Shown here: positions 5,460 to 38,723 of the stretch, one piece after another
Position numbering within the stretch: position 1 is the stretch's first letter
Layout: every line of letters starts with the position of its first letter
The notes under the pieces: model-generated
Databases searched by the model: none
The model's input: only the letters and a program-made list of their open reading frames with translations
What the model was told of the DNA's origin: nothing
Program-made: the position numbers and the translations under genes
Origin: a virus
Taxonomy: Duplodnaviria; Heunggongvirae; Uroviricota; Caudoviricetes
DNA length: 64,000 bases
Virus record (IMG/VR): IMGVR_UViG_3300034069_000533
Location: 65,947 to 129,946 of that record
Direction: 5' to 3' (one strand)

Positions 5460-5540
5460 GGTAAGGTGGGCGAGTGGTTGATGCCGTCAGACTGTAAATC
5501 TGATCCTTCGGGCGCGTTGGTTCGAATCCAACCCTTACCA
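5460..5540 (+). tRNA. tRNA-Tyr: tRNA-Tyr (GTA), class II with long variable arm
   Basis: Acceptor ggtaagg/ccttacc, anticodon stem tcaga/tctga with loop cTGTAAa, variable arm tccttcgggcgc, T-arm gttgg-ttcgaat-ccaac. Confidence 0.75.
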
Positions 5541-15196: not shown

Positions 15197-15255
15197 TTGC
15201 TGTGCTCCTTCTCTCTGAAACCTTTATATCGTGCGGAACACAGAGCGTCAACAGC
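15197..15255 (-). promoter_or_regulatory. consensus promoter-operator-leader cassette
   Basis: Same cassette. Confidence 0.55.
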
Positions 15256-16037: not shown

Positions 16038-16333
16038 TAGCAATCCTCCTCCATCTTCTTGCGGCAAAACAAAATTACGGCATCCTCGGTTGATCCGCGA
16101 AACACAATATCCGGGCGCTTGCCAGCCTTCGTGTCGTCCATTGTTACCGTGCTGGCATCGCGGACAACAAATGCTTGGTCATATTCGTTATGCTCGCCGC
16201 AGCGCCGCACAGTCCGCACCGCGTAAATGGCAAAGCGGCTGAGCGATCCTGGCATCATGGCAACGGACAATTCCTGCCCGGCAACCAAGTGCTTCGGGCT
16301 ATTGCCGGGATTGATAGTGCGCCAGTTAAGCAT
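16037..16333 (-). CDS. hypothetical protein
   Basis: 98-aa ORF, middle gene of a three-gene unit. Confidence 0.35.
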   Translation of the reverse strand: MLNWRTINPGNSPKHLVAGQELSVAMMPGSLSRFAIYAVRTVRRCGEHNEYDQAFVVRDASTVTMDDTKAGKRPDIVFRGSTEDAVILFCRKKMEEDC

Positions 16334-27446: not shown

Positions 27447-27843
27447 TTTTTACCTCGCAATTTGCTGCCCGACAGCATTTGCGGAAGCCGGCAAACTTTT
27501 GTCAATCAAACGTCTTCGTGATGTACTTTTGTCATCCGAAACGAAAAACCGCTGACAGAAAGCCATAACCCTTGACTCCCCCGACACCCTTCCCCATCCT
27601 CTGCGGCGAGGCGCCCGGCTCCTGTTAAGCACTTACGCCAGTCCCCCAAGACATTCGGCTGTATAGATGGCCACCGGGGGCCGGGGCGCCTCACCAAGAT
27701 TGCCCGCCTGAGACGCGCTCCGCGCGCTGGCGGGCGCAGGCCGGGGTTTCAGGGGTGTCCCTCGGCCGGCGGGTGCAAGACCCGCCATAGGCTTCACCGG
27801 GCGGGACTCCTCCTTCTCCACCACGCCCGGCGCGGCTAGCGAG

Positions 27844-28157
27844 CGGTGAAAATCCGCCGGCCGGGTGCTGTTCCCGATGCGGCATCCGGCAGAGGCATGG
27901 GAGCGCAGATTGCGCCGCGTTTGCCATGCTGCGGCCGGTGGAAACCCGGCCCTCTATTTTCCCTTGATCTTTCTGCAATGACCGGATATACCATTCTCCG
28001 GTTTCGCCGCTAGCGCTTGTCACGCCAGCGGCAGACGGGCCTCCTCCTCCCGGCAGCCGGTGAAAGCCCGGCTGTGCTGCGATTGCTGGAACAAGACGCA
28101 ACACAGAGACATGACGGCGCCGCACACGCCATCATGTCGCGGCCGGTGAAAGCCCGG
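27844..28157 (+). repeat. array of four GC-rich hairpin repeats (GCCGGTGAAAGCCCGGC family)
   Basis: Copies at 27844-27860 (cggtgaaaatccgccgg), 27934-27950, 28056-28072 and 28141-28157, spaced ~90-120 nt apart, in an ~800-bp region with no convincing ORF. Confidence 0.5.
27965..27993 (+). promoter_or_regulatory. putative promoter TTGATC-N17-TATACC, sharing a 20-nt motif with the rsr promoter
   Basis: TTGATCTTTCTGCAATG here versus TTGATCTTTTTGCAATG at 30245. Confidence 0.4.
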
Positions 28158-28257
28158 CGCCAATTTCACCTTACATAAAGCTGTTTATGTTTGCCTTGCC
28201 TTACACAAGGCACTCGCCTATTGAAGTTGTGCCACAAACTTTAATGGAGCAATAACC

Positions 28258-28482
28258 ATGTCCGATGTTGACCAGCGCGCAATGCTAGCGTGGCAAACTC
28301 TGGCGTTTGATCGCTTGGCTGCCGTCAACCAGCTTATTGACGCGCTGAATTCCGCATTACGCGATGTTGCCGACGCTGGCATGACGGTAAATCAGCCAAG
28401 GATCGAATCCCACCCGGCCAGCGCTGGCGGCTTGTCGGTGCCGTCCTACAGGATTTTGCCGATTAAGGGTAAGATTGGCTAA
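28258..28482 (+). CDS. hypothetical protein
   Basis: 74 aa; RBS ggag; stop overlaps the next start (TAATG). Confidence 0.4.
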   Translation: MSDVDQRAMLAWQTLAFDRLAAVNQLIDALNSALRDVADAGMTVNQPRIESHPASAGGLSVPSYRILPIKGKIG

Positions 28483-29021
28483 TGGCAACATTCTTTACCT
28501 CCGACACGCATTTTGGTCACACCGGCATTATTGCTCATTGCCACCGGCAATTTGCCAGCGTGCAGGAGATGGACGCGACGCTAATCCGCAACTGGAATGC
28601 GTTTGTTGGCCCGCGTGACGAAGTTTGGCACCTTGGCGATTTTACACTGGCTGGCACCGATGATGCCATTAATTATCTTAACCAGCTAAACGGCAAAATT
28701 CATCTGATTTGGGGCAATCATGACCGCAACAGCGTGCGGTCACTGTCCCGATGGGTGACAAGCGACTATGCGCGCGAAATCAACCTTGACGGCCACAAGC
28801 TGACGCTCTGCCATTACGCAATGCGCGTTTGGAATCAATGTGCGAGAGGCGCGCTCATGCTGTATGGCCACAGCCATACCGGCTTGCCCGGCACATCGCA
28901 GAGCCAGGATGTTGGCGTTGACGCTTGGGACTTCCGCCCGGTGACGCTAGCTGACATTCTGCACCGCATGGCCGGCGCACCCGCGTTTGCCAGCGAAGAT
29001 CATCATTCCCCGGAGTTTTAA
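28482..29021 (+). CDS. calcineurin-like metallophosphoesterase
   Basis: Motifs SDTHFGH, GD, GNHD and HSH in the canonical order. Confidence 0.65.
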   Translation: MATFFTSDTHFGHTGIIAHCHRQFASVQEMDATLIRNWNAFVGPRDEVWHLGDFTLAGTDDAINYLNQLNGKIHLIWGNHDRNSVRSLSRWVTSDYAREINLDGHKLTLCHYAMRVWNQCARGALMLYGHSHTGLPGTSQSQDVGVDAWDFRPVTLADILHRMAGAPAFASEDHHSPEF

Positions 29022-29024
29022 TAA

Positions 29025-29282
29025 ATGCCGAGTTTTGAGATTGATCCGCTGATTGCGCAAGCCGCCAACCGGCTGGACGTGCCTTACCATGCGGTTGAGT
29101 GGTTTGCTTGGCCGGAAGCCTTCCCCACTACCGCCGGCCCGTCGCGCGGCATGATCGCGGGCCAAGCCTTCACCACCTTTCAAGTCTTCGCCTTCCGCGT
29201 GGCGGGCGCTGACAAGGGGCTGATGTATTGCGCCGGTCACTGGCAGGATTGGGGCGGCGCCATGCAGGAGCGTTGGAAGTAA
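29025..29282 (+). CDS. hypothetical protein
   Basis: 85-aa ORF followed by the A/T-flanked hairpin caacggaaaaa...tttttccgttg. Confidence 0.35.
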   Translation: MPSFEIDPLIAQAANRLDVPYHAVEWFAWPEAFPTTAGPSRGMIAGQAFTTFQVFAFRVAGADKGLMYCAGHWQDWGGAMQERWK

Positions 29283-29368
29283 GTCGAATCCGCAACGGAA
29301 AAATCTTCAACGCCGATGCATTTTTCCGTTGCGCCCCATCCAGAATGGCGGCATACATAGCGGGCCGG

Positions 29369-29426
29369 GTTTGGCGCAGGTCGCGGTTTCATCATGGAAC
29401 GAAAAACCGCAGCCGACTCTTTCCAA
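29369..29426 (+). ncRNA. Y-RNA-like hairpin RNA, unit 1 (stem only)
   Basis: 5' TTGGCGCAGGTCGCGGTTTCATC pairs imperfectly with 3' GAAAAACCGCAGCCGACTCTTTCCAA, giving a long bulged stem with a 10-nt loop; the same 5' and 3' motifs recur in five more units. Confidence 0.55.
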
Positions 29427-29477
29427 TCCGGTATTTACCGCCGCAGTAGCGGCGATCTACCGCCGCAGGGCGGGACG

Positions 29478-29557
29478 CTTGGTGTAGGTTACGGTTGCAT
29501 CTGTTTTGTAAACAGGCGTCCTTATGGGACACCGCACGCCGTTCCCGCTTATTCCAG
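29478..29557 (+). ncRNA. Y-RNA-like RNA, unit 2
   Basis: Starts cTTGGTGTAGGttacGGTTGCATC and ends cTTATTCCAG; internal hairpin ctgtttTGTAAacagg; flanked by a long inverted repeat (gcagggcgggacgc / gcgtcccgccctac). Confidence 0.45.
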
Positions 29558-29596
29558 CGTCCCGCCCTACGGCGTCTAACTCGGTAAAGGGGAATT

Positions 29597-29720
29597 CTTG
29601 GCGTAGGACGCGATTGCATCAGCAGGGAGCGGAGGTTGCCGGTTTGGAGTCCGGCCAGCGCCATTCGGGGCTGTAGCTCAACATAGAGCGCCGTTAAGCT
29701 TCGCATCCGATTATTTCCAG
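29597..29720 (+). ncRNA. Y-RNA-like RNA with permuted tRNA-like module, unit 3
   Basis: 5' cTTGGCGTAGG...GATTGCATC; T-arm-like gccgg-tttggag-tccgg; acceptor-like cagcgcc/ggggctg; D-arm tagctcaac-atagagcg; 3' ...TTATTTCCAG. Confidence 0.5.
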
Positions 29721-29759
29721 AATTCCCCTTTGCTGTGTTGGTTGCCGATCAGCGGGCAT

Positions 29760-29819
29760 CTTGGCGCAGGCTTCGGTTTCATCTCCGTAACATGAAAAAC
29801 CGCAGCCGATTATTTCCAG
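29760..29819 (+). ncRNA. Y-RNA-like hairpin RNA, unit 4 (stem only, paralog of unit 1)
   Basis: cTTGGCGCAGGcttcGGTTTCATC ... GAAAAACCGCAGCCGATTATTTCCAG. Confidence 0.55.
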
Positions 29820-29858
29820 ATGCCCGCTTAACGGCGCCTCGATTAAAAGAGTGGTTAT

Positions 29859-29990
29859 TTTGGCGCAGGTTTCGGTTTCATCAAAAGCAGTGTGCCGTTG
29901 GTTCGATTCCAACCAGCCTCCCCAAAATTTATGGAGGCTGTAGCTCAGTGGTAGAGCAACCGCCAGTAGACCGATACCGCCTCTTTCCAA
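29859..29990 (+). ncRNA. YrlA-like Y RNA with canonical circularly permuted tRNA-like domain, unit 5
   Basis: 5' TTGGCGCAGGtttcGGTTTCATC, then T-arm gttgg-TTCGATTCC-aac, acceptor 3' cagcctc, loop ccccaaaatttat, acceptor 5' gaggctg, D-arm tagctcagtggtagagc, then 3' aaccgcc...CTCTTTCCAA. This T-arm / acceptor / D-arm order is a tRNA opened at the anticodon loop and closed at the acceptor end. Confidence 0.65.
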
Positions 29991-30027
29991 ATAACCGCTC
30001 TTTTAATTAGGTCTGTAAAGTGGTTTG

Positions 30028-30175
30028 CTTGGCGTAGGATTTGGTTGCATCGCAGCGCGCGGGTTCGATTCCCGCACAGTCTCAAGCCTAGGCAGCCGGG
30101 AGATTGTTGGGCGAGTGGTAAGCCAGGGGGAGCAATCCCCCGCTTCGGCAATATGCTAATTCCGCTAAATTTCCA
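30028..30175 (+). ncRNA. Y-RNA-like RNA with permuted tRNA-like module, unit 6
   Basis: 5' cTTGGCGTAGGatttGGTTGCATC; T-arm gcggg-TTCGATTCC-cgc; acceptor-like cagtctc/gagattg; D-like ggc-gagtggtaa-gcc; 3' ...TAAATTTCCAG. Confidence 0.5.
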
Positions 30176-30244
30176 GCAAACCGCTTTACCGACTTAATTC
30201 CCGCAAGCTGTCAGACAGCCCCAATTTTTCCCCAATTCTCTGTT

Positions 30245-30273
30245 GATCTTTTTGCAATGGGCGCGTAGCCTAA
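30245..30273 (+). promoter_or_regulatory. putative rsr promoter TTGATC-N17-TAGCCT with the shared TTGATCTTTTTGCAATG motif
   Basis: Same -35 and spacer sequence as at 27965. Confidence 0.4.
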
Positions 30274-30319
30274 ATTTGCGGGCCTATTTTGGCCCCATCG
30301 CAGAAGGAGCAACCATCCC

Positions 30320-31753
30320 ATGTCTCGCATCAACGTCGCCCGGTCTTCCGGCGTATCCCCGTTCGTTCCGCACGAAGCGGGCGCCAATCAGGCGCTTTCC
30401 GCTGAGCAGACGCTAGAGCGGCTTGTGTCGTGCTGCCTGCTTGGCGAGGATCAGTTTTATCTCAACGGCCAGTCCGTCCAGACTGCGATTGCTGAGGTCG
30501 CCAAGCAGGTTAAGCCGGAATTTGTGGTGTCGCTCGCCGTCAAGGCGCGGCTTGAGCTTGGGCTGCGGCATGTCCCGCTGCTGCTGCTGACGCTCACGCT
30601 CGATACCGACGCGGGGCGCAACGCCATCCGCAAGCAGGCGGCGCCGATTCTGCGCACGCCGAAGGATGCGATGGATTTGCTGGCGCTCTACTGGCGAGCG
30701 GGCAAGCGTCCGGTGCCGCACGTTTTCAAGCAGCTTTTCCGTCAGCGCTTCGCGGTTTGGTCTGACTACCAAATCCAGAAGTATGGCACGCTATCGGCGC
30801 GCGTTAGCGTCCGGCTGCGTGATGTGCTGCGGCTGTGCCATGCCGATCCGCGCAATTTTTACTCCAACGCTCTGGCTGATGATCGTAACGCAATTACTGT
30901 TGCGCGCGAGGCTTTGTTTAAGTCGCTGACCGACGACACCATTCGCGCGCCCGACACCTGGGAGTCCGCGCTGTCTGCGGCCGGGCCGGATGGCGACAAG
31001 CGCGCCATTTGGGAGCGGCTGTTGGCTGAGCGGAAGCTTGGCGCGCTGGCGCTGGTCCGCAACCTGCGGAACATGGAGGCGGCCGGCGTCACCCCGGCGC
31101 TCGTGATCGCGGCCATGGAGACGGTCAAGGCGGGCGACGTATGGCCCTGGCAGGCTCTAGCGGCGGCGCGTGAGGCCCCGACCTATACGCACGCCCTGGA
31201 TGCCCTCATGCTGCGATCTGCCGGCTCCCTGCCGCGCCTGCCGGGGCATACGGGCGTGCTGGTAGACGTGTCGGGGTCCATGGATCACGGGCTGTCCACC
31301 AAGGGCACGATGAAGCGCATGGACGCGGGCGCCGGGCTTGCCGTGGTGCTGAATGAGGTTTGCGAGGCGTCCACCATCGCCAGCTTTTCCGAATCCGTGG
31401 TGCTGGTTTCCAGCATCGCCATAGGCAAGCGCGGCGCGGGTCTGGCCAGCGACATTGTACGCAGCCAGCCGCATGGCAGAACCTATCTGGCGCAGGCGGT
31501 GGAAACCTTCCTGCGCTGCCATCCGATCATTGACCGGCTGGTAATTCTGACCGACGAACAGGCGCAGGACCACTTCACGTCCCCGCCGAATTTGCCGGTG
31601 TATGTCGTCAATCTCGCGTCCACTGAGCGCGGGATGAACATGCAACAGAAGGTAACGCGTATCAACGGTTGGTCCGGCAATGTTATTCGCTGGCTGGCTC
31701 AGGATATTGCCGGCACCATCGGGCAGGTTGGCGACGGTAGCGAGGAAGATTAA
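30320..31753 (+). CDS. rsr: Ro60-related protein (TROVE domain plus vWA domain), Rsr ortholog
   Basis: The N-terminus NQALSAEQTLERLVSCCLLGEDQFYLNG aligns with the Ro60/Rsr N.xGG.A..L....L.RFL.LGSEGGTYY block. The C-terminal vWA has a MIDAS-like DVSGSM. Y-RNA-like genes lie immediately upstream, and the terminator gccgggcagtaatgcccggcttttttt follows. Confidence 0.75.
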   Translation: MSRINVARSSGVSPFVPHEAGANQALSAEQTLERLVSCCLLGEDQFYLNGQSVQTAIAEVAKQVKPEFVVSLAVKARLELGLRHVPLLLLTLTLDTDAGRNAIRKQAAPILRTPKDAMDLLALYWRAGKRPVPHVFKQLFRQRFAVWSDYQIQKYGTLSARVSVRLRDVLRLCHADPRNFYSNALADDRNAITVAREALFKSLTDDTIRAPDTWESALSAAGPDGDKRAIWERLLAERKLGALALVRNLRNMEAAGVTPALVIAAMETVKAGDVWPWQALAAAREAPTYTHALDALMLRSAGSLPRLPGHTGVLVDVSGSMDHGLSTKGTMKRMDAGAGLAVVLNEVCEASTIASFSESVVLVSSIAIGKRGAGLASDIVRSQPHGRTYLAQAVETFLRCHPIIDRLVILTDEQAQDHFTSPPNLPVYVVNLASTERGMNMQQKVTRINGWSGNVIRWLAQDIAGTIGQVGDGSEED

Positions 31754-31761
31754 CCAACGAA

Positions 31762-31789
31762 GCCGGGCAGTAATGCCCGGCTTTTTTTA
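31762..31789 (+). terminator. rho-independent terminator after rsr
   Basis: gccgggcagtaatgcccggc followed by a T7 run. Confidence 0.7.
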
Positions 31790-31808
31790 ACCGAGAAGGA
31801 TAAACAAA

Positions 31809-32171
31809 ATGGCTGAAGTGCATATTGGTGGCAAAAAGTTTATTATGTCCGATTCCGACGCCATGCAGCGAACCATGGAGGGAATTCTAGAAATTCAATC
31901 TAACGGCTCTTACGGGCTGCACCCGGATTTCCCGCTGTTTGATGTTATGTCCAAGGGCGTTGCTGATACCATGGACATTGGGCGGCTGCCCTCTAGGAAA
32001 TCTGGCGTTATGGCATTTCTGATGGCAATGTTTGTCAATGTGCAAACACGCCAGGGGACGGTTGCTGCCATTCCCAACGCAATCCTGATTGCGGAATATT
32101 GCGCCGATCATGGCCACGATGTTGCTGCTAGCCTGCGCCTCGCCATGTCGCTTGATCGGCCGCCGCAGTAA
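31809..32171 (+). CDS. hypothetical protein
   Basis: 120 aa; RBS gagaagga; terminator at 32195-32226. Confidence 0.4.
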   Translation: MAEVHIGGKKFIMSDSDAMQRTMEGILEIQSNGSYGLHPDFPLFDVMSKGVADTMDIGRLPSRKSGVMAFLMAMFVNVQTRQGTVAAIPNAILIAEYCADHGHDVAASLRLAMSLDRPPQ

Positions 32172-32194
32172 CTAACGCTTGCCGCCACAGACGA

Positions 32195-32226
32195 AGCCGG
32201 GCTATAATAGCCCGGTTTTTTTATTG
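32195..32226 (+). terminator. rho-independent terminator
   Basis: agccgggctataatagcccggc plus a T run. Confidence 0.65.
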
Positions 32227-32236
32227 AGGAATAATC

Positions 32237-32365
32237 ATGTCCTGGCTGCTGTGGTTTGCTATTGGCTATTGCGTATCAACCATCTTCCCGGTGCCGAAGG
32301 TCCAGCGCGTCATTCTGGACGGTTGGGCGCGCGTGTGGGATCGGATCAAGGTCCACTTTGGTTAA
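32237..32365 (+). CDS. 42-aa hydrophobic peptide
   Basis: RBS gagga 8 nt upstream; MSWLLWFAIGYCVSTIFPV looks like a TM helix. Confidence 0.3.
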   Translation: MSWLLWFAIGYCVSTIFPVPKVQRVILDGWARVWDRIKVHFG

Positions 32366-32377
32366 CCGGCGGGTGCC

Positions 32378-32593
32378 GTGACGGACCTAGCGGACGCACC
32401 CGGCCAGCCCGCCAGCCCTGACGCCGTAACCGCTGGCGAGGTCCACAAGCTAGCCGCTGAGCGCGGTATAGGCGTGCTGTCGGCCAAGGCGCTGCTGATC
32501 CGCGAGCGCATGCAGGCGCAGCTAGAAGCGGCTCAGACGGTAGAAGATTTGAAGCCGCTGCTGCGGCTGCTGATCCGGCACTACACGCCGTAG
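32378..32593 (+). CDS. hypothetical small protein
   Basis: 71-aa ORF. Confidence 0.3.
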   Translation: MTDLADAPGQPASPDAVTAGEVHKLAAERGIGVLSAKALLIRERMQAQLEAAQTVEDLKPLLRLLIRHYTP

Positions 32594-32595
32594 GA

Positions 32596-32910
32596 GTGCG
32601 CCAGATGGGTTGGAGCGATTGCGACACTCATAGCCAGGGGCGGCGCATCGGGTACGCTCACGCGGCGTCCTGCGACCACCCCGGCTGCACCCGCGCCATA
32701 GACCGTGGCCTAGCCTATGCCTGCGGCGGCGATCACGGCGCAGGCGAATTGTTCTGCGAAGGATACTTCTGCGGCGATCATCTCATGGTGGCGCCGGATA
32801 CCGATGGCGGCAGCGTATGGCTCTGCCCTGGCTGCTACGAAGCATATGCAAAAGCCGCCACGGATGATCCGGGCGGCTTTCCTGACATGGCGCGGGATTT
32901 GGGGCTTTAG
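32596..32910 (+). CDS. Cys/His-rich hypothetical protein
   Basis: 104 aa with CDHPGC, CGGDHG, CEGYFCGDH and CPGC metal-binding motifs. Confidence 0.35.
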   Translation: MRQMGWSDCDTHSQGRRIGYAHAASCDHPGCTRAIDRGLAYACGGDHGAGELFCEGYFCGDHLMVAPDTDGGSVWLCPGCYEAYAKAATDDPGGFPDMARDLGL

Positions 32911-32916
32911 CGGGGC

Positions 32917-33306
32917 TTAGCGCCCCGCCTCCCAACCAAGTGCCTGCTTGGTCTTGTTGTCAGCCTGCATGCCGCAGGTAGTCTTGCCGTTCTCCTTCGG
33001 TGCCCGGTCATACGGGTTGCGCTTGTGATAGGTAATGGTCTGCACCACAAGGCAGATAGAGAATTCGCCGCCCTCGCCGCCTTCGCGCTCGAAAACAATA
33101 CTCCAAACCGTCTTGTGGTTATCGGCGTAAGAGGAGCGGCCCCAATTAAAACCAGTGTTATTGGTGGCCTTGGTGCAGTCGAGAAGCTGAAACCCCTTGG
33201 CGGCGATCCGCTGAAGCGTGCGGGTGACAATCTTGTTGGGGCTGTTGTCGGAAGGCTCAACGCCCTCAATCACGCCCGCATTCCAGTCAAAACCCGTCGC
33301 GTTGGT
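32917..33306 (-). CDS. hypothetical protein
   Basis: ~129 aa from MTNATGF; consensus cassette upstream (33307-33367). Confidence 0.4.
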   Translation of the reverse strand, partial: TNATGFDWNAGVIEGVEPSDNSPNKIVTRTLQRIAAKGFQLLDCTKATNNTGFNWGRSSYADNHKTVWSIVFEREGGEGGEFSICLVVQTITYHKRNPYDRAPKENGKTTCGMQADNKTKQALGWEAGR

Positions 33307-33367
33307 CATCAGTGTCTTCCTTCTCTCTGACATCTTTTTACCGTGCCGCACGCATACGGTCAACACC
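33307..33367 (-). promoter_or_regulatory. consensus promoter-operator-leader cassette (outside the main array)
   Basis: Same cassette. Confidence 0.55.
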
Positions 33368-33382
33368 TAATTTCAGCTTTAA

Positions 33383-33412
33383 CAAAAAAAAGCGGGGCTT
33401 AAGCCCCGCTAT
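33383..33412 (-). terminator. rho-independent terminator (bidirectional type)
   Basis: aaaaaaaagcggggcttaagccccgc. Confidence 0.6.
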
Positions 33413-33600
33413 CCATCTGCTTGATCGCCAGATTGGCCTTATGCCGTAAACGCCGATTGTATCCGCGCTTGATCGACTGACACACGCCCGGCCGGTGGGT
33501 GTAGCAATACATCTTGCGCCAGCCGGTAAACACGTCCTGCTCATTACCGTTGGCAAGCTTAATCTTGGACGGCGGCTCTACCTCATGCGCTCGCATTGTC
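33399..33600 (-). CDS. small basic protein
   Basis: 67 aa (MTMRAHEVEPP...), K/R-rich; the longer ORF upstream overlaps tRNA-Gln and was truncated. Confidence 0.3.
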
Positions 33601-33610
33601 ATTCTCCATT

Positions 33611-33685
33611 TGGTTGCCCTGCCAGGATTCGAACCTAGACCCTCGCATTCAAAGTGCGATGTTACTACCGTTAAACTACAGGGCA
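33611..33685 (-). tRNA. tRNA-Gln: tRNA-Gln (TTG)
   Basis: Minus-strand read: acceptor tgccctg/cagggca, anticodon stem tcgca/tgcga with loop cTTTGaa, T-arm ctagg-ttcgaat-cctgg, encoded CCA. Confidence 0.7.
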
Positions 33686-33690
33686 ATAAA

Positions 33691-33927
33691 TTAACTGCGC
33701 TTCGTTTTCTTCTTCTCATCCACCGACGCCACAGCGACCGCCAGCCGGTCAATTGCGCTGGCGATGGCGAATAACCCCGCCGCCTGCCAGCATAGTGGCT
33801 GAATGCTGGATGCGCCCTGCATGCCGGCCAGAGAATTGCCAACATCGGTCAGATGCTCACGCTGCACATCAGACGCGTTAGCCATCATTTCCGCACGCTC
33901 TTTAATGTCCATACTGTTTATTCCCAA
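33691..33927 (-). CDS. hypothetical small protein
   Basis: 78-aa ORF. Confidence 0.3.
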   Translation of the reverse strand: MGINSMDIKERAEMMANASDVQREHLTDVGNSLAGMQGASSIQPLCWQAAGLFAIASAIDRLAVAVASVDEKKKTKRS

Positions 33928-33966
33928 ATAAAAGAAACCCGGCGGGACAATCCCGCCGGATTATTT

Positions 33967-34155
33967 TTAGCGCCGCCTAGCGTCCTCAAACAATGGCGTC
34001 AGGACAACCGCGAGCGCCGTCATGGCTACGCCCAATATTGCGGAAGCGAGAATTGGCACCGGCCCAAAAATCTCGCCAAAGAAGTAAGCAAAATTAACCG
34101 TAAACCCAATAATCAGAATAGCAGCCAGATAAAGCGGCATGTTTTTCTCCCTCAC
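33967..34155 (-). CDS. small membrane protein
   Basis: 62 aa with two hydrophobic helices; translationally coupled upstream of the SPFH gene. Confidence 0.35.
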   Translation of the reverse strand: MREKNMPLYLAAILIIGFTVNFAYFFGEIFGPVPILASAILGVAMTALAVVLTPLFEDARRR

Positions 34156-35081
34156 TTCCCTTCAACGCTGCCGGGCAGCATCATCATGGGAGTCGGCCCG
34201 GAGCCACCGAAAATCTGCCGGGGCATGGCGCCGTCCCACCGTTCAGCCTGCCGCAACCGCACATAGCTGTCGCCAGCGGCCCCAAGCGCTGCCGCCTGCG
34301 CCCGAATGGCACCAGCCTCAGCCTCACCCCGGAGCGCGATGCTGCGGGCCTCTGCGGCTGCCTGTAGCTCGGTCGCCTGCGCCTTGGCCTTGGCCTCGGC
34401 AACCGCGCTGTCAGCCCGCCCACGCGCCGCCTGAATGGCAGCGTTGGCCTCACCGCGCGCCGCATCCTCGCGCGTCTTGGCCTCCGTCTCAACCTGCGCC
34501 TGCCGCTGCTGCGCGATGGCCGCAGTGTTTACCGCATCACGGAATTCCTTGGAGTAATCAAAATTATCAAGTCGCAGGTCGTTAATCAGGATGCCATAAC
34601 GCTCCATCGCTTCTGGCTTCACGCGCTCAAAGATTGCCTGCTGAATGCGCGCCCGACCGCCGGGCAATTCCTCAGCGCGATGCGTGCCAATCTCAGCCTT
34701 GGCGCGGGCAACAATCAGGCTGGCGAGTAGCGCCTCAACGTTGCCGCGAATACGCCATACCTGCTCAACGTTGGCTTCCGGCACGATCCAATCAACCACG
34801 AAATCAACGTCAACGTGCTGCGGCTGGTTGCCGCTGGTAAACACTTCCAAATTCTTCAGCGTAAGAATGCGATTGGTCAAGCTAATATCGTCAACGCCGT
34901 CAATAAACGGCACCTTAAAGCCCATGCCGGGCTGAGCAATGCCGACAAAAGCGCCATTGCGGGTCAACACCCCACGCTCAGTGGCATGCACGTTGTAGAA
35001 GCTGCCGCCAATGGTGGTAATGCCAACCAGCCCAACCACGCCGAGAGCGGCAACACCGCCAATAAATCCAGCATTCGACAT
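34152..35081 (-). CDS. SPFH/band-7 (stomatin/HflK-like) membrane protein
   Basis: N-terminal TM segment, SPFH core, C-terminal Ala/Glu-rich coiled coil (AQVETEAKTREDAARGEANAAIQAARG...). Confidence 0.6.
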   Translation of the reverse strand: MSNAGFIGGVAALGVVGLVGITTIGGSFYNVHATERGVLTRNGAFVGIAQPGMGFKVPFIDGVDDISLTNRILTLKNLEVFTSGNQPQHVDVDFVVDWIVPEANVEQVWRIRGNVEALLASLIVARAKAEIGTHRAEELPGGRARIQQAIFERVKPEAMERYGILINDLRLDNFDYSKEFRDAVNTAAIAQQRQAQVETEAKTREDAARGEANAAIQAARGRADSAVAEAKAKAQATELQAAAEARSIALRGEAEAGAIRAQAAALGAAGDSYVRLRQAERWDGAMPRQIFGGSGPTPMMMLPGSVEGK

Positions 35082-35196
35082 TAATAGTTTTCCTTCTTCT
35101 CTTTTGCATTAGGACCAAGGAGGTAGCATGCGGCCCATCCACACGCGCCCCCAAAGGCAAAGAAAGTCATAGCCACAAAGGCTAGCTCTTTCAGCA

Positions 35197-35778
35197 TTAC
35201 TTCATCCCAAAATTGCCAGGAAACGCAGCCTTCAGCCCCCAAGCCGCGTTAAGATAAATCCGCGCCTTGGAAATATTCGTCTCGCCGGTGTAGAGCGCCA
35301 TCGCCCGGTTGTAGACATCAACGATGGGGTCAAGCGCGCTCGCCGCCGCATCCGCTACGCTGGCCGGCGCTGCCTCAGCGACGGACTCAGCAGCAACGGG
35401 CGCCGCCTTCGCAGGCTTGGCCTCAGCACGGGCAGCCAGCAAAGCCGCTGAGGCCGTCTTGCCGCCCTTGGCCGCGACCGGACCCTTGCCAGTCCACGGC
35501 GCGACGAACCGGCGCGGACCAACACCCTGCACAACCGGCTTGCCAAGCTGCTCGACAGCCTTAACGCCCGCCGTGGTCAGCGAGTAGACCGACACGCCAT
35601 ACTTGTCGGGATACCGGACAGCGAGGCCATCACGCACAAGCTTCTGTGCGTAATTATACGCATTGTTGCCAGCGATGCCGGTTTCCTTGGAAATCTCAGT
35701 CGTCTTGACCGCACGGTGATGCGAAAGGATGAAATATGCAACCTCATGCGCGCGAGTGTTCGGGTAAATCTGCTTCAT
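35197..35778 (-). CDS. winged-helix DNA-binding protein with Ala-rich tail
   Basis: wHTH-like TTEISKETGIAGNNAYNYAQKLVRDGLAVR; upstream promoter carries its own GGAAC-N9-GTTCC palindrome. Confidence 0.4.
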   Translation of the reverse strand: MKQIYPNTRAHEVAYFILSHHRAVKTTEISKETGIAGNNAYNYAQKLVRDGLAVRYPDKYGVSVYSLTTAGVKAVEQLGKPVVQGVGPRRFVAPWTGKGPVAAKGGKTASAALLAARAEAKPAKAAPVAAESVAEAAPASVADAAASALDPIVDVYNRAMALYTGETNISKARIYLNAAWGLKAAFPGNFGMK

Positions 35779-35868
35779 GGTATGTGTTTTCCTTCTCTGT
35801 TGTGGTTAGCGAGTTAGGTATAGCGCTCTGGCTGGAACATTGCAAGCGTTCCGTACAGTTGCGGCGAA
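35779..35868 (-). promoter_or_regulatory. variant promoter TTGCAA-N17-TATACC with a different palindrome GGAACgcttgcaatGTTCC over the -35
   Basis: Upstream of the wHTH gene; possible autoregulatory operator. Confidence 0.35.
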
Positions 35869-36758
35869 TTTTCTTGAGCAACCTCAGAACCGGACTTGGA
35901 GCCAAACAGCGCGCCAATCAGCCCCTTACCCTTTTCTTCATGCATGACAACCTGACAATCATCCTGAATGCCAAGCTGCTCGGCCATGGCGTAAGCTGCC
36001 TGCCGGCGCGAACCGATACCATCAATCAGGCTGTATTCAAGCGCTGTCTGCGCATCAAAAATCATGGCGCCCATTTCGTCGGTAATAACATTTTCGTCAA
36101 TCATCCGGCACGATGAAACATGATTAACAAAATCGGCGTACTGTCGCTTCAGCATGCCACTAATGCCGTCATATTCCTCCTGCGTCATTGCGCGGTGCGG
36201 ATTCAAAATATCCTTGCCGCGCCCGGCGCTCAGCGTGCGAAAGTCAATGCCGCCGCCGCTGGCATCCGTCTCAATTCCGCCAAGCAATCCCTTCTGCGCA
36301 ATAACCTTGCGATAAAAAGCGTGCGTGCCAAGCGTCACGCCAATTGATCCAATGATGCTGCCAGGATCGGCGTAAATCTTGTCAGCCGCCACCATGGCCC
36401 AAACGCCACCCGATGCCGAAATGCCCTCAACATGGGCAAAAATCGGCGCTTTGTCGCCATAGTCAGAAATACCCTCGGCCAGCGCCTCAGCCGCCGATAC
36501 CGTGCCGCCGGGCGTGATAAACTGCATCAGTACGCCCTTGATGCTTTTGTCATCTTCGGCGCGGTCCAAGAGGTTCTGAATGTCCAGCGCCGATGCGCTG
36601 CGGTCAAGCGCGCTGAACGCGCCACGGGGCTTAACCGTAGTCATCACGCCTTCAACCCGGATCAGCAGAATCTTATTCTTGGAGTGACGATCACCCCAAA
36701 CATAGCGCGTGCTAAGCTTCTCGCCCTTGGTCGCGGTCTTACTCGAAAAAATACCCAA
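35814..36758 (-). CDS. S49-family (SppA/ClpP-fold) serine peptidase, NfeD-like
   Basis: GGTVSAAEALAEGI...APIFAHVEGISASGGVWAMVAADKIYADPGSIIGSIGV matches the SppA catalytic region; paired with the SPFH gene. Confidence 0.55.
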   Translation of the reverse strand: MGIFSSKTATKGEKLSTRYVWGDRHSKNKILLIRVEGVMTTVKPRGAFSALDRSASALDIQNLLDRAEDDKSIKGVLMQFITPGGTVSAAEALAEGISDYGDKAPIFAHVEGISASGGVWAMVAADKIYADPGSIIGSIGVTLGTHAFYRKVIAQKGLLGGIETDASGGGIDFRTLSAGRGKDILNPHRAMTQEEYDGISGMLKRQYADFVNHVSSCRMIDENVITDEMGAMIFDAQTALEYSLIDGIGSRRQAAYAMAEQLGIQDDCQVVMHEEKGKGLIGALFGSKSGSEVAQENSPQLYGTLAMFQPERYT

Positions 36759-36876
36759 TTAACTAACTCCTTCTCTTGTTGGGCCTTAGTTTTCCGGCCA
36801 CAGCCCAACAATAAGCGTTGCAAACGATAGGTCAAGCAGATACTTTGAAAATCGTTCAACACAGGAGTTAGCCCCT

Positions 36877-37086
36877 ATGCCCGCCCTGGAAGCGGCGGCA
36901 CCACAGCCGCCCGCCCCAACCCTACTGGACCCGGCCAGCGATCATGCCGCGCTTGTCGCCGCATGGCGCGCGGCTGACGCAGCTTATGAATCATACCGTA
37001 CATGCAATTTCAATGTGTATGGCAGTTGGCTTTCATGGCAACGTCTTGTTGCTGTGGCTGCAAGCTTGGGCGAGCGGCCAGAATAA
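36877..37086 (+). CDS. hypothetical small protein
   Basis: 69-aa ORF. Confidence 0.3.
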   Translation: MPALEAAAPQPPAPTLLDPASDHAALVAAWRAADAAYESYRTCNFNVYGSWLSWQRLVAVAASLGERPE

Positions 37087-37100
37087 GTGGAGTAATTAAA

Positions 37101-37475
37101 ATGAGCGTATGCACTGATGATGTTGAGCGCGCGGTGTTTAATGCCTTTATTCGGCATTACCGCTGCGCCGGGATGGCCGGGCCAGCCTTGACCATTAATC
37201 ATTGGCTGGCGGTAGTCGCGGCGGGTGACGATGACGGATTCAACGCCAGTCAGCGCTTGCGCGATTGGTCGGCCATTCTGAGCGCGGCGGCGAGCGCGCT
37301 GGACGGCACCACGCCAGAGGATGCCGCCCGCATCCACAAAATTGAATGCGAGGCTTACGAACGCGCCGCAAAAGAGGTAGAAGCCATATTGCGCGAGGCG
37401 TCGCAAACAGTCGCCCGCGACATATCAACTGCCATCCGGCAGCTTGGATCAAAAGAAGGAAATAAACATGAGTAA
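37101..37475 (+). CDS. hypothetical protein
   Basis: 125 aa from MSVCTDD with RBS aagtggag. Confidence 0.35.
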   Translation: MSVCTDDVERAVFNAFIRHYRCAGMAGPALTINHWLAVVAAGDDDGFNASQRLRDWSAILSAAASALDGTTPEDAARIHKIECEAYERAAKEVEAILREASQTVARDISTAIRQLGSKEGNKHE

Positions 37476-38277
37476 TGACGCGCTAGGTGACAGAATGAAG
37501 GCTTACGAAGCGCGCGAAAGCGCGCGGCGCTTTCTGCCGGGTTTGCCGATCTATGCCCGCATTGATGGGCGCGGCTTTTCTCGCTTCACCAAGGGACTTG
37601 TGCGCCCCTTTGACCAGCGCATGTCGCTGGCCATGCTGAGCGCCACCCGGCGTCTTGTGCAGGAAACGCACGCCCGGATTGGCTATGTGCAATCGGATGA
37701 AATATCCCTCGTCTGGCTGGCGGAAGACGTGACCGGATCGGTTTTTTTTGACGGCAAGATTCAAAAAATGTGTTCGGTGCTGGCCGGAATGGCGACCGCT
37801 GCCTTTACCCGTGCCGTTCTGAATAGCGATCCGACATTCGCCGCCTACGCTGAAAAGCTGCCGCATTTTGACTGCCGGGTGATTGAGCTACCGAACAAGA
37901 CCGAAGCCGCCAATATGTTCCTTTGGCGTAATCTGGACGCGACCAAAAACGCAGTCAGCATGGCGTGTCGCCATTATTACCCGCATAAAGAAATGCACGG
38001 CCAGGGCCAAGCCGATCAACACGAAATGTTGCATGTGCAGGGTGTTAATTTCAATAACTACCCGGCATTCTTCAAGCGCGGGGTTTGGGTGCGGCGCGTG
38101 CTGGTAGAGCGGCCATTCACGCCACAGGAATTGGAGCGCATCCCCGAAGCGCACCGGCCAGAGCCGAATACCCTTGTGACTCGAAGTGAGATTCGTTCGT
38201 TTGACTTACCGAAGTTTAGCAGCGTGCTAAATCGGGAGGCGGTTATTTTTGATGGCGCGGAGGCGCTGACGCTATGA
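37468..38277 (+). CDS. Thg1-like protein (tRNA-His guanylyltransferase family, 3'-5' nucleotidyl polymerase)
   Basis: DRMKAYE...FLPGLPIYARIDGRGFSRFTKGL...QSDEISLVW parallels Thg1 blocks (KxYE, R[IL]DG[RK]xF[HS]xF, SDE[YI]SF); ~270 aa; RBS aaagaaggaaa. Confidence 0.65.
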   Translation: MSNDALGDRMKAYEARESARRFLPGLPIYARIDGRGFSRFTKGLVRPFDQRMSLAMLSATRRLVQETHARIGYVQSDEISLVWLAEDVTGSVFFDGKIQKMCSVLAGMATAAFTRAVLNSDPTFAAYAEKLPHFDCRVIELPNKTEAANMFLWRNLDATKNAVSMACRHYYPHKEMHGQGQADQHEMLHVQGVNFNNYPAFFKRGVWVRRVLVERPFTPQELERIPEAHRPEPNTLVTRSEIRSFDLPKFSSVLNREAVIFDGAEALTL

Positions 38278-38699
38278 GCCAACACAAATTCTGGCTCATG
38301 GTTACGGGCGGCAGGCACTACGCCAACCAGCCGGCGGTATGGGACGCGCTGGATGAGGTGCATTACGAGGTGGGCGGTATAACCCTGCTGATCCATGGCG
38401 CCACACCAACCAAGCAAGGCGCGGACTGGCTGGCCGATGCTTGGGCTAAAGCCCGTGGCGTGCCGGTCAAGCAGGTTCCGGTTGACACCAAGTTTGATGG
38501 TCCCTGGCCGAACGCTGGCCGCATGCGCAACGCGCGGATGCTGATGCACTACCCGCCGGATGGCATCATGGCGTGGCCAGGAGGTCCGGGAACACAGGAC
38601 ATGATGGTTAGAGCCGATTTAGCCGGGTATATCGTTCGCTATATTGACATACCCGACACCGGGCTTAATGCGGATGGCTCGCTAGTCGGAAAAGGATAA
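38274..38699 (+). CDS. SLOG-family (DUF2493-like) Rossmann-fold protein
   Basis: LMVTGGRHY...LLIHGATPTKQGADWLADAWAKARGVPV resembles the DprA/LOG-like SLOG core; coupled to the Thg1-like gene. Confidence 0.4.
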   Translation: MSQHKFWLMVTGGRHYANQPAVWDALDEVHYEVGGITLLIHGATPTKQGADWLADAWAKARGVPVKQVPVDTKFDGPWPNAGRMRNARMLMHYPPDGIMAWPGGPGTQDMMVRADLAGYIVRYIDIPDTGLNADGSLVGKG

Positions 38700-38723
38700 G
38701 GCGCCTCACGGCGCCTTTTTCAA
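38699..38723 (+). terminator. rho-independent terminator
   Basis: aaggcgcctcacggcgcc plus a T run. Confidence 0.6.

What the first reader, a model, noticed from the sequence alone, without database searches (positions are those of the whole stretch)
27500..38723. Co-localised RNA end-repair and tRNA-biology module
Within about 11 kb the element encodes a calcineurin-like phosphoesterase (SDTHFGH...GNHD). The same stretch holds the Rsr protein with its Y-RNA array, a tRNA-Gln(TTG), a Thg1-like 3'-5' nucleotidyl polymerase (RIDGRGFSRF...SDEISLVW) and a SLOG-like protein. Four more tRNAs sit elsewhere. Thg1-like proteins repair or extend tRNA 5' ends. Ro60/Y RNA complexes recruit exoribonucleases to structured RNAs. 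Together with the phosphoesterase this looks like a toolkit for repairing or remodelling tRNAs. It could plausibly counter host anticodon nucleases or other tRNA-targeting defences. The combination does not match any named system.
Basis: partly seen in the sequence, partly recalled or inferred. Interest (0 to 1): 0.75.

Follow-up and report, generated by a model that had tools for sequence, protein, structure and literature searches.

The report
Loose phage tRNA/RNA-maintenance gene island
A roughly 130-kb phage really does carry several RNA- and tRNA-handling genes close together. They sit in separate transcription units and are not inherited together in related phages, so this is a familiar, shuffled phage RNA-repair gene set rather than a new defined system.

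Summary
All the gene calls hold. They are a metallophosphoesterase (28482-29021), six Y-RNA genes plus Rsr/Ro60 (29360-31753), tRNA-Gln(UUG) (33611-33685, minus strand), a bacterial-type Thg1-like 3'-5' polymerase with intact catalytic D/D/E (37468-38277) and a YAcAr/DUF2493 SLOG protein (38274-38699).

They do not form one module. They lie in at least four transcription units on alternating strands. A membrane SPFH / S49-peptidase / HTH block separates them.

About 250 related loci were examined. Rsr, the phosphoesterase and the Thg1-like gene turn up within 10 kb of each other only occasionally:
- Thg1 lies near Rsr in 1 of 80 viral Rsr loci.
- A phosphoesterase lies near Rsr in 3 of 80.
- Neither lies near the Thg1-like gene in any of 80 cellular loci.

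Thg1-SLOG adjacency exists only in one close relative, and another close relative lacks Thg1 at that spot. SLOG usually sits beside replication genes.

The theme still has support. This phosphoesterase family sits in a conserved RNA ligase-kinase-phosphoesterase cassette in other phages. Phage Thg1 and Rsr genes often lie among tRNA genes. A RlaP RNA-repair nucleotidyltransferase lies at 15.2 kb. No RNA ligase is present in the window.

Iyer et al. 2021 already listed these families as a phage anti-tRNase repair toolkit. Verdict: real, mostly ordinary, modest interest.

The parts
27450..28257 (+). GC-rich non-coding leader upstream of the MPE unit, of unknown role. It carries three copies of a GCGGCCGGTGRAAVCCCGGC hairpin and a 17-mer (27964-27980) that recurs just ahead of rsr.
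   Evidence: No gene is called here in the source contig. Repeats appear. Fold z-scores are -4.7 and -2.8. There is no Rfam hit. The 17-mer is exact at 27964 and 30243.
28482..29021 (+). Calcineurin-like metallophosphoesterase (PHROG 547 / aq_1665 family). It is the candidate RNA 3'-end healing enzyme. It is flanked by small ORFs at 28258-28482 and 29025-29282 that match no family.
   Evidence: Pfam and PHROG hits. Nearest solved structure is 1XM7 at 1.7e-8. Homologs end a ligase-kinase-MPE cassette in other phages.
29360..30191 (+). Array of six Y-RNA-like genes: U1 29360-29437, U2 29466-29567, U3 29589-29729, U4 29752-29829, U5 29845-30005, U6 30014-30191. U3, U5 and U6 carry tRNA-like T and D arms (YrlA type). 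U1, U2 and U4 are short (YrlB type).
   Evidence: Sub-threshold Rfam YrlA hits of 37.4 and 25.2 bits, and a tRNA model hit at 29934-30084. Six-copy repeat family D1. Shared motifs and folds.
30320..31753 (+). Rsr / Ro60 orthologue (TROVE ring plus vWA-like C-terminal part). It is followed by orf120 (31809-32171) and a terminator-like hairpin at 32193-32219.
33611..33685 (-). tRNA-Gln(UUG) with encoded CCA. It forms its own small unit between terminator-like hairpins at 33936-33962 and 33391-33410. It is the orthologue of the tRNA-Gln that sits in the tRNA array next to rsr in the related phage contig L030.
33967..36758 (-). Intervening block that is not RNA-related: S49/SppA-type peptidase (35814-36758), HTH protein (35197-35778), membrane-anchored SPFH/Band-7 protein (34152-35081) and a 62-aa membrane ORF (33967-34155).
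   Evidence: Pfam and NCBIfam hits. A strong terminator follows the block.
37468..38277 (+). Bacterial-type Thg1-like protein (TLP, a 3'-5' nucleotidyltransferase). It is the third gene of a plus-strand cassette: orf69 36877-37086, orf124 37101-37475, TLP, SLOG.
   Evidence: In alignment A2 (numbered from the ATG at 37468), catalytic D77 and E78 are invariant and D33 is nearly invariant.
38274..38699 (+). YAcAr / DUF2493 SLOG-domain protein. Its start overlaps the TLP stop by 4 nt. A bidirectional terminator-like hairpin lies at 38698-38717.
15255..16067 (-). RlaP (RNA-ligase-associated Pol-beta nucleotidyltransferase). It is a further RNA-repair-type gene and lies outside the reported interval.
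   Evidence: PF10127 at 2e-68. Its neighbours match no family.
5156..5541 (+). tRNA array: Leu(UAA), Leu(UAG), Pro(UGG), Tyr(GUA).

Best explanation
This is a mosaic accessory region of a tailed phage of about 130 kb. Several independently mobile genes for RNA and tRNA upkeep have accumulated next to each other and next to other counter-defence genes.

Each unit most likely works on its own:
1. Rsr binds the six Y RNAs. By analogy with bacterial and Thermus-phage Ro60 RNPs, the complex tethers a host 3'-5' exoribonuclease such as PNPase to structured or damaged RNAs.
2. The Thg1-like enzyme rebuilds missing 5' nucleotides of tRNA acceptor stems, using the 3' strand as template.
3. The metallophosphoesterase removes 3'-phosphate or 2',3'-cyclic phosphate ends left by metal-independent RNases.
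4. RlaP at 15.2 kb adds back lost nucleotides.
5. The phage tRNAs supply A-ending codons and could also replace cleaved host tRNAs.

The SLOG protein probably belongs with nucleotide or NAD-signal genes, or with DNA functions, rather than with tRNA repair.

Shown here: gene identities, catalytic motifs, the transcription-unit layout and the neighbourhood statistics. Inferred: every biochemical activity and any anti-defence role.
For: - Family assignments and motifs.
- Separate units: strand switches, plus terminator-like hairpins at 32193-32219, 33936-33962, 33391-33410 and 38698-38717.
- Mosaic history: the related contig L030 shares Rsr (58%), primase (56%) and helicase (41%). It has only 2.3 kb between rsr and the primase gene, with no MPE, SPFH block, Thg1 or SLOG.
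- Within the close clade, L066 has Thg1 followed by SLOG, but L065 has the orf124 homolog followed directly by SLOG, without Thg1.
- Variable, low-frequency links to RNA-repair enzymes. Of 80 viral Rsr loci, 3 have an MPE, 1 has Thg1, 2 have RtcB, 2 have an Rnl-type RNA ligase and 1 has a CCA enzyme.
- The MPE ends a ligase-kinase-MPE cassette in Ceto, L044, L048 and L050-L056.
- Thg1 lies near RtcB in L064 and near a CCA enzyme in Kabachok.
- tRNA genes lie within 1 kb in 8 of 20 viral Thg1 loci and 16 of 80 viral Rsr loci.
- Surrounding counter-defence genes: Acb3 and NADAR.
- The published framework is in PMC7824862 section 3.4.9. Phage Ro60-Yrl-PNPase complexes are described in PMC12135203.
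Against: - No activity was measured.
- The window holds no RNA ligase or kinase, so the canonical heal-and-seal pathway is incomplete here. The other half of the genome was not available.
- MPE enzymes are promiscuous. The only NCBIfam hint is to a DNA-damage phosphoesterase, PdeM, far below its cutoff.
- The closest MPE homologs (L031-L034) have no RNA genes nearby, except a PTH2-domain gene in L041.
- The MPE unit and rsr share an exact 17-mer upstream, and TLP and SLOG overlap by 4 nt. Both hint at some coordinated expression that pure independence would not predict.
Confidence: 0.6

Rival explanations
1. This is a coherent tRNA-repair pathway. Y RNAs with tRNA-like modules and Rsr act as a scaffold that brings damaged tRNAs to the MPE for 3'-end healing and to the TLP for 5'-end rebuilding. 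RlaP and a host or unseen phage ligase finish the job. Together they counter host anticodon or acceptor-stem nucleases.
For: - All components lie within 10 kb, and RlaP lies 12 kb away.
- The MPE sits directly upstream of the Y-RNA array on the same strand, and shares a 17-mer with the rsr upstream region.
- An MPE recurs 2.5-3.5 kb upstream of Rsr in L177, L193, L208 and L037. Thg1 lies 4 kb from Rsr in L221 and 3 kb from an MPE in L051.
- In Salmonella, rsr and its Y RNAs share an operon with RtcB and RtcA (PMC7790460).
- From memory, Burroughs and Aravind 2016 proposed Rot/TROVE proteins as scaffolds in RNA repair systems.
Against: - The combination is rare and variable. No Rsr, MPE or SLOG lies near the TLP in 80 cellular loci, and no Rsr in 25 viral TLP loci.
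- Of 80 viral Rsr loci, 76 lack both an MPE and Thg1.
- In at least ten GenBank phages that have both genes, they lie 71-139 kb apart.
- Here the parts sit in different transcription units, with an unrelated membrane block between them.
- No ligase lies in the window.
Confidence: 0.2
2. The juxtaposition is coincidental and most parts have no role in tRNA repair. The tRNAs only adjust codon supply. The MPE works on DNA ends, proteins or nucleotide signals. SLOG works in replication or NAD/ADP-ribose signalling. Rsr/Y RNA remodels host RNA decay. The TLP matures a phage tRNA, for example by adding G-1 to a tRNA-His encoded elsewhere.
For: - The tRNAs read TTA, CTA, CCA, TAY and CAA, and have perfect acceptor stems.
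- The MPE family occurs in 1,528 phage records, almost all without Rsr or Thg1. It shows a weak PdeM resemblance.
- SLOG occurs in 341 records, mostly next to DNA polymerase or replication genes.
- Two genes in a 130-kb genome fall within 6 kb of each other about 9% of the time by chance. Accessory genes also cluster.
- A tRNA-His sits 285 nt upstream of Thg1 in L006 and L007.
Against: - The MPE family's conserved ligase-kinase-MPE cassette points to RNA ends.
- The TLP is closest to BtTLP, which prefers 5'-end repair over G-1 addition (PMC3061083, PMC3701042).
- RlaP is present.
- RNA-repair enzymes are enriched near viral Rsr genes, in roughly 9 of 80 loci.
Confidence: 0.2

Closest known systems
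Jumbo-phage RNA-repair and tRNA-provisioning gene sets (Iyer, Anantharaman, Krishnan, Burroughs and Aravind 2021, PMC7824862 section 3.4.9)
   Same: The same families are listed together as a phage answer to host tRNases: phage tRNAs, ROT/TROVE with a tRNA-like RNA partner, calcineurin-like phosphatases, RlaP and Thg1. YAcAr SLOG is also noted in phages, but under NAD/ADP-ribose signalling.
   Different: This genome is about 130 kb, not a jumbo phage. No RNA ligase, kinase or CCA enzyme appears in the 64 kb available. The genes lie closer together than in the jumbo phages, where Rsr and Thg1 are 71-139 kb apart.
Salmonella rsr-yrlBA-rtcBA RNA repair operon (PMC4201824, PMC7790460)
   Same: Rsr and same-strand tandem Y RNAs, including tRNA-like YrlA types, are encoded beside an RNA-end-processing enzyme.
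   Different: The neighbour here is an MPE, not the RtcB ligase or RtcA cyclase. There is no RtcR regulator. There are six Y RNAs rather than two. The motif is GGCG(C/U)AGG instead of GNCGAAN0-1G. The Rfam YrlA score is below its gathering threshold.
Phage heal-and-seal cassettes: T4 Pnkp plus Rnl1 against PrrC, the bacterial Pnkp/Hen1 system with its MPE-type phosphatase domain (both from general knowledge), and the ligase-kinase-MPE cassette seen here in Vibrio phage Ceto and in IMG/VR contigs
   Same: The window MPE is 43% identical to the Ceto cassette MPE. It has the full set of metal-binding motifs.
   Different: The window gene has lost, or never had, the adjacent ligase and kinase. Activity on RNA ends has not been tested for this family.
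Bacillus thuringiensis Thg1-like protein BtTLP (PDB 4KGK; PMC3701042, PMC3061083)
   Same: It is the best solved relative (3e-35). The catalytic carboxylates and the RIDG and SDEIS motifs are conserved. The expected reaction is templated 3'-5' repair of truncated tRNA 5' ends.
   Different: The gene is phage-encoded. The activation-step lysine of the AKPFD motif is an arginine (RPF/YD) throughout this clade. The substrates are unknown.
Thermus phage phiLo Ro60 with Yrl1 and Yrl2 (PMC12135203), and Rsr in Caulobacter phage CcrColossus
   Same: Each is a phage Ro60 with Y-RNA genes immediately upstream. The phiLo RNP assembles with host PNPase in vitro. CcrColossus also has many GGCGTAG motifs upstream of its Rsr gene.
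   Different: There are six Y RNAs here against two in phiLo. The neighbouring genes differ.

Membership tests
Thg1 / Thg1-like protein (TLP) family | Match to the Thg1 catalytic-domain profile above the curated threshold | tested here: met
   PF04446 scores 97.5 bits against a cutoff of 29.2. PHROG 4717 scores 1.2e-77.
Thg1 / Thg1-like protein (TLP) family | Three catalytic carboxylates (BtTLP D30, D75, E76; human D29, D76, E77) | tested here: met
   The RIDG and SDEIS motifs align with BtTLP. In alignment A2, D77 and E78 are invariant and D33 is nearly invariant across 14 homologs. Residue roles come from PMC3701042.
Thg1 / Thg1-like protein (TLP) family | Bacterial TLP type rather than eukaryotic Thg1 type | tested here: met
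   BtTLP 4KGK scores 3e-35, while eukaryotic Thg1 structures score 1e-10 to 2e-5.
Thg1 / Thg1-like protein (TLP) family | Templated 3'-5' nucleotide addition to tRNA 5' ends | not testable with these tools
   This needs an enzyme assay.
Ro60/Rsr with Y RNA RNP | TROVE ring domain and a vWA/MIDAS domain | tested here: inconclusive
   TROVE scores 57 bits against a cutoff of 23, so it is met. vWA_Ro60 scores 18.7 bits, below its cutoff of 27.7. The DxSxS-type residues D316, S318 and S320 are invariant in alignment A3.
Ro60/Rsr with Y RNA RNP | Y RNA genes within 4 kb on the same strand, each with a long terminal stem and a conserved 5' motif (GNCGAAN0-1G per PMC4201824) | tested here: met
   Six units lie 130-960 nt upstream on the same strand. 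Each has a long terminal stem. The motif is GGCG(C/U)AGG, one position off the published consensus.
Rfam YrlA (RF02553) | Score at or above the family gathering threshold | tested here: not met
   The best scores are 37.4 and 25.2 bits against a gathering threshold of 69. These are YrlA-like in architecture but divergent.
Calcineurin-like metallophosphoesterase | Profile match above threshold, plus the DxH, GD, GNH(D/E) and GHxH motifs | tested here: met
   Metallophos_2 scores 35.4 bits against a cutoff of 27. The motifs SDTHFGH, GDF, GNHD and GHSH can be read in the translation.
RNA end-healing phosphoesterase (Pnkp-type function) | Conserved linkage to a polynucleotide kinase and an RNA ligase | tested here: not met
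   The linkage holds for homologs in Ceto, L044, L048 and L050-L056. It does not hold in this window, which has no ligase or kinase. Activity was not tested.
SLOG superfamily, YAcAr/DUF2493 family | Profile match above threshold | tested here: met
   PF10686 scores 52.6 bits against a cutoff of 28.2.
Complete RNA repair system (the syntax of Burroughs and Aravind 2016, recalled from memory: ligase, nucleotidyltransferase, end-modifying enzyme, scaffold) | Presence of an RNA ligase (RtcB or ATP-grasp Rnl) | tested here: not met
   Every ORF of 300 aa or more in the window has another assignment or is an overlapping spurious frame. tblastn with three ligase types finds nothing. The other roughly 66 kb of the genome was not available.
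   There are at least four units, with terminators between them. No co-conservation appears in about 250 related loci, apart from rare variable pairings.

The most novel reading that the evidence does not exclude
The MPE, the six-member Y-RNA array and Rsr form a real functional unit. It would be a phage 'tRNA repairosome', in which tRNA-like Y RNAs tether Ro60 to end-repair enzymes (the MPE, the Thg1-like polymerase, RlaP) instead of, or as well as, an exonuclease. Acceptor-stem or anticodon-cleaved tRNAs would then be repaired without a dedicated phage ligase, defeating host tRNA-targeting defences.
Probability: 0.1. Interest if true: 0.75.

Novelty: new member of a known kind. Interest (0 to 1): 0.32.

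Why it matters
If the parts do cooperate, this would be a compact natural test bed for how phages keep tRNAs working under attack by host tRNases. It would have about ten genes and lie in a mid-sized genome. It could also give the first physiological role for a bacterial-type Thg1-like enzyme and for phage Ro60/Y RNA particles.

As the evidence stands, the main value is descriptive:
- It shows that these families travel as loose, interchangeable pieces of phage tRNA islands.
- It assigns the very common PHROG 547 phosphoesterase to RNA-repair cassettes by neighbourhood.
- It warns against reading proximity in mosaic accessory regions as a system.

Tried and rejected
- Megablast of the 11-kb region against GenBank phages found nothing.
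- Single-sequence IMG/VR scans with Rsr, SLOG and SPFH found nothing. An alignment-based Rsr scan then worked.
- I could not read Burroughs and Aravind 2016. Its claim that SPFH/Band-7 proteins with a tRNA-like RNA act as RNA-repair scaffolds is recalled from the abstract only.
- I considered whether the SPFH gene plus tRNA-Gln is such a pair and set the idea aside. A strong terminator (33936-33962) separates them. The SPFH protein has an N-terminal membrane helix and the classical S49/NfeD-type partner. The tRNA-Gln is a canonical tRNA, orthologous to one in the tRNA array of L030. Phage SPFH homologs were too distant to test this.
- I looked for 5' acceptor-stem mismatches in the phage tRNAs that would call for TLP editing. 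There are none.
- I looked for a ligase beside RlaP. There is none.
- I looked for a known RNA family in the structured 27.45-28.25 kb leader. There is none.
- The closest MPE homologs gave no informative neighbours, except a PTH2-domain gene in L041.
- I did not model structures. The family assignments were already clear, and fold matches among MPEs would not settle the substrate.

Full report
**What the window is.** It is part of a tailed-phage genome. Major head protein, prohead protease, portal and large terminase lie at 2-11.5 kb. Helicases, a primase and a Cas4-type exonuclease lie at 44-55 kb. The exact Rsr, Thg1-like and SLOG proteins occur on one JGI contig of 129,946 bp and on short Logan contigs from run SRR23972087. 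There is no near-identical phage in GenBank. Most genes are on the minus strand. The two stretches that hold the MPE/Y-RNA/Rsr genes and the Thg1/SLOG genes are plus-strand islands.

**Checking the observation.** All calls hold.
- The phosphoesterase (28482-29021) passes Pfam Metallophos_2 and matches PHROG 547 at 8e-51. Its only solved sequence relative is the uncharacterised Aquifex protein 1XM7.
- Rsr (30320-31753) has the TROVE domain.
- Upstream of rsr lie six tandem units at 29360-30191. They share the 5' motif TTGGYGYAGG...GGTTKCATC and a 3' TTTCCA(A/G) motif. Each closes with a long terminal stem.
- Units 3, 5 and 6 contain a T arm followed by a D arm, the YrlA arrangement. Units 1, 2 and 4 are short.
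- Rfam's YrlA model hits two of the units below its threshold, and the tRNA model hits 29934-30084.
- The motif GGCG(C/U)AGG is one position away from the GNCGAAN0-1G motif described for bacterial Y RNAs (PMC4201824).
- tRNA-Gln(UUG) is canonical and has an encoded CCA end. Four more tRNAs lie at 5156-5541.
- The Thg1-like protein (best start 37468) passes PF04446 strongly. It is closest to the Bacillus thuringiensis TLP structure 4KGK (3e-35). It keeps the catalytic carboxylates in the RIDG and SDEIS motifs (residue roles from PMC3701042).
- The whole clade has arginine where BtTLP has the activation-step lysine.
- The SLOG protein passes PF10686 (YAcAr).

**Anatomy.** The interval is not one unit.
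- Plus strand: a structured non-coding leader (27450-28257), orf74, the MPE, orf85, six Y RNAs, Rsr and orf120, then a terminator-like hairpin at 32193-32219. Two small ORFs follow.
- Minus strand: S49/SppA-type peptidase, an HTH protein, a membrane-anchored SPFH/Band-7 protein and a 62-aa membrane ORF, ending at a strong bidirectional hairpin (33936-33962). Next come orf78 and tRNA-Gln with its own hairpin (33391-33410), then orf149.
- Plus strand again: orf69, orf124, TLP and SLOG, ending at a bidirectional hairpin (38698-38717).
- The S49/SPFH pair is the classical membrane protease-scaffold pairing and has no evident RNA role.
- Two features hint at local coordination. An exact 17-mer (TTGATCTTTYTGCAATG) lies ahead of both the MPE unit and rsr. 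The TLP and SLOG genes overlap by 4 nt.

**Co-conservation tests.**
- Around Thg1-like genes: 20 IMG/VR loci, two GenBank phages and the three closest homologs (65-71% identity) were checked with up to 10 kb of flank. None has Rsr, MPE or SLOG nearby.
- 80 loci from cellular genomes, mostly Myxococcota, also have none.
- Around Rsr: the three closest long-contig homologs and three GenBank phages have no MPE, Thg1 or SLOG.
- An alignment-based scan gave 80 more viral Rsr loci. Three have a distant MPE 2.5-3.5 kb upstream (L177, L193, L208, all inside large tRNA/tmRNA arrays). One has Thg1 4 kb upstream (L221). Two have RtcB immediately downstream, two have an Rnl-type ligase and one has a CCA enzyme.
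- Around the MPE: of 31 IMG/VR loci, one has an Rsr-like gene 3 kb away (L037) and one has Thg1 3 kb away (L051).
- In GenBank, at least ten phages carry both Rsr and Thg1: seven Brevundimonas phages, CcrColossus, CcrPW and RsoM2USA. In all of them the two genes are 71-139 kb apart.
- SLOG/DUF2493 occurs in 341 phage records, typically beside DNA polymerase or replication genes. It lies far from Thg1 where both are present.

**Close relatives show the pieces moving.**
- Contig L030 shares Rsr (58%), primase (56%) and helicase (41%) with the window. It also has an orthologous tRNA set.
- In L030 a seven-tRNA array, including tRNA-Gln, abuts the Y-RNA gap and rsr. Only 2.3 kb separate rsr from the primase gene. 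The window has 15 kb there, holding the SPFH block and the Thg1-SLOG cassette.
- L066 and L067 carry Thg1 (81%) directly followed by SLOG (64%).
- L065 carries the orf124 homolog (62%) directly followed by SLOG (81%), with no Thg1 between.
- So the Thg1 gene is an insertion or deletion relative to its neighbours, even within this clade.

**What supports the RNA-repair theme.**
- The MPE family is common, in 1,528 phage records.
- In Vibrio phage Ceto (T5-like, 43% identity) the annotated order is RNA ligase, small ORF, ATPase, phosphoesterase.
- The same ligase / small ORF / P-loop kinase / MPE order occurs in IMG/VR loci L048 and L050-L056, and in L044 with a different ligase type. In L051 a Thg1 gene sits at the head of the cluster.
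- In L041 the next gene has a PTH2 peptidyl-tRNA hydrolase domain.
- This neighbourhood makes an RNA 3'-end healing role the best guess for the family. It is not proven. A far sub-threshold resemblance to the DNA-damage phosphoesterase PdeM is a caution.
- Phage Thg1 genes lie within 1 kb of tRNA genes in 8 of 20 viral loci. Examples are a tRNA-Gln 8 nt downstream in L001-L003 and L020, and a tRNA-His 285 nt upstream in L006 and L007. Other Thg1 genes lie near RtcB (L064) or a CCA enzyme (Kabachok).
- A RlaP nucleotidyltransferase, a family defined by its association with RNA ligases, lies at 15255-16067.
- Against a complete pathway: no RNA ligase or polynucleotide kinase exists in the 64 kb available.

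**Context.**
- Just beyond SLOG lie an Acb3 anti-CBASS gene (39268-40098) and a NADAR gene (42604-43182). GIY-YIG and HNH endonuclease genes are also present.
- Acb3 is described as an inhibitor of CD-NTases (bioRxiv 10.1101/2025.07.23.666291).
- The 26-43 kb stretch therefore looks like a general accessory and counter-defence region.
- Iyer et al. place YAcAr SLOG domains with NAD/ADP-ribose signalling, which fits this company better than tRNA repair (PMC7824862).
- The five tRNAs read TTA, CTA, CCA, TAY and CAA and have fully paired acceptor stems. Codon supplementation is enough to explain them, and none needs 5' editing.

**Mechanism.**
- Most likely (about 0.6): independent units that each help keep RNA and tRNA usable. 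Rsr with six Y RNAs would tether a host exoribonuclease, as shown for bacterial Rsr and in vitro for Thermus phage phiLo (PMC4201824, PMC12135203). The TLP would rebuild tRNA 5' ends (PMC3061083). The MPE would heal 3' ends, RlaP would add back nucleotides, and the tRNAs would provide supply.
- Rival (about 0.2): a truly cooperating pathway scaffolded by Rsr and the Y RNAs.
- Rival (about 0.2): mere coincidence, with non-RNA roles for the MPE and SLOG.

**Novelty.**
- The idea that phages combine tRNAs, TROVE proteins, calcineurin-like phosphatases, RlaP, CCA enzymes and Thg1 against host tRNases is already published for jumbo phages (PMC7824862, section 3.4.9).
- The Rsr link to RNA repair operons is known from Salmonella (PMC7790460).
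- This locus is a new, compact, ligase-less arrangement of known parts in a mid-sized phage.
- Interest is modest. The more unusual items are the six-member Y-RNA array, the MPE placed directly ahead of it, and the unexplained structured leader at 27.45-28.25 kb.

Noticed in passing
window 15255-16067 (-): RlaP nucleotidyltransferase (PF10127, 2e-68). The family is defined by association with RNA ligases, but here it stands alone. Its neighbours match no family, and there is no ligase in the window.
   Followed up: partly
window 39268-40098 (-) and 42604-43182 (-): Acb3-family CBASS inhibitor (PF25187, 1e-75) just beyond the SLOG gene. A NADAR-domain protein also lies here, and resembles NCBIfam's 'NADAR family anti-phage protein' below its cutoff. 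Together they make 26-43 kb look like a counter-defence island.
   Followed up: partly
window 27450-28257: 800-nt GC-rich stretch with no gene called. It has three copies of a GCGGCCGGTGRAAVCCCGGC hairpin (27925, 28047, 28133). It folds better than shuffles (z -4.7 and -2.8). There is no Rfam hit and no homolog in any fetched locus. It could be an unknown structured RNA or a leader.
   Followed up: partly
window 27964-27980 and 30243-30259 (+): Exact 17-mer TTGATCTTTYTGCAATG, within a 30-nt repeat of 80% identity. It lies ahead of the MPE unit and again just ahead of rsr. It may be a shared promoter or operator.
   Followed up: partly
window 8228-11476 (-): The large terminase ORF is 1082 aa. 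Terminase profile matches cover only residues 29-172 and 810-1077. This suggests an intein or another large insert of about 640 aa.
   Followed up: no
window 26745-27446 (-) and 43186-43935 (-): GIY-YIG and HNH endonuclease genes. The HNH gene has a GC3 of only 0.24, against 0.5-0.7 for its neighbours, so it is probably a recent arrival.
   Followed up: no
L149 3297-5519 (Vibrio phage Ceto); L044, L048, L050-L056: Conserved cassette of RNA ligase, small ORF, P-loop kinase/ATPase and PHROG 547 phosphoesterase. It occurs in T5-like phages and several IMG/VR lineages. It looks like a split heal-and-seal RNA repair set. In L051 it is headed by a Thg1 gene.
   Followed up: partly
L030 8909-11356: A related phage contig (NCBI GCA_040384225.1). 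It has a seven-tRNA array (Leu, Gln, Leu, Leu, Pro, Tyr, Thr) that runs straight into the Y-RNA gap and rsr. The tRNA set is the same as in the window, but there it is contiguous with rsr.
   Followed up: partly
L065 823-1616; L066 43-1299: In close relatives the Thg1 gene is variably present. L066 has Thg1 (81%) followed by SLOG (64%). L065 has the orf124 homolog followed directly by SLOG (81%).
   Followed up: yes
L097 9493-10786; L101 4013-5262: In two cellular genomes (Fimbriiglobus and Myxococcales MAGs) a P-loop kinase gene lies directly upstream of the Thg1-like gene. This would fit phosphorylation of 5'-OH ends before 3'-5' repair.
   Followed up: no
L177, L193, L208: Viral contigs in which 13-22 tRNA genes and a tmRNA gene surround a distant MPE homolog and an Rsr gene. 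In large phages, tRNA islands repeatedly host these families.
   Followed up: partly
L025 3813-4997 (Caulobacter phage CcrColossus): At least six GGCGTAG motifs lie in the 1.2 kb upstream of the CcrColossus Rsr gene. Multi-copy Y-RNA arrays are therefore probably not unique to this window.
   Followed up: no
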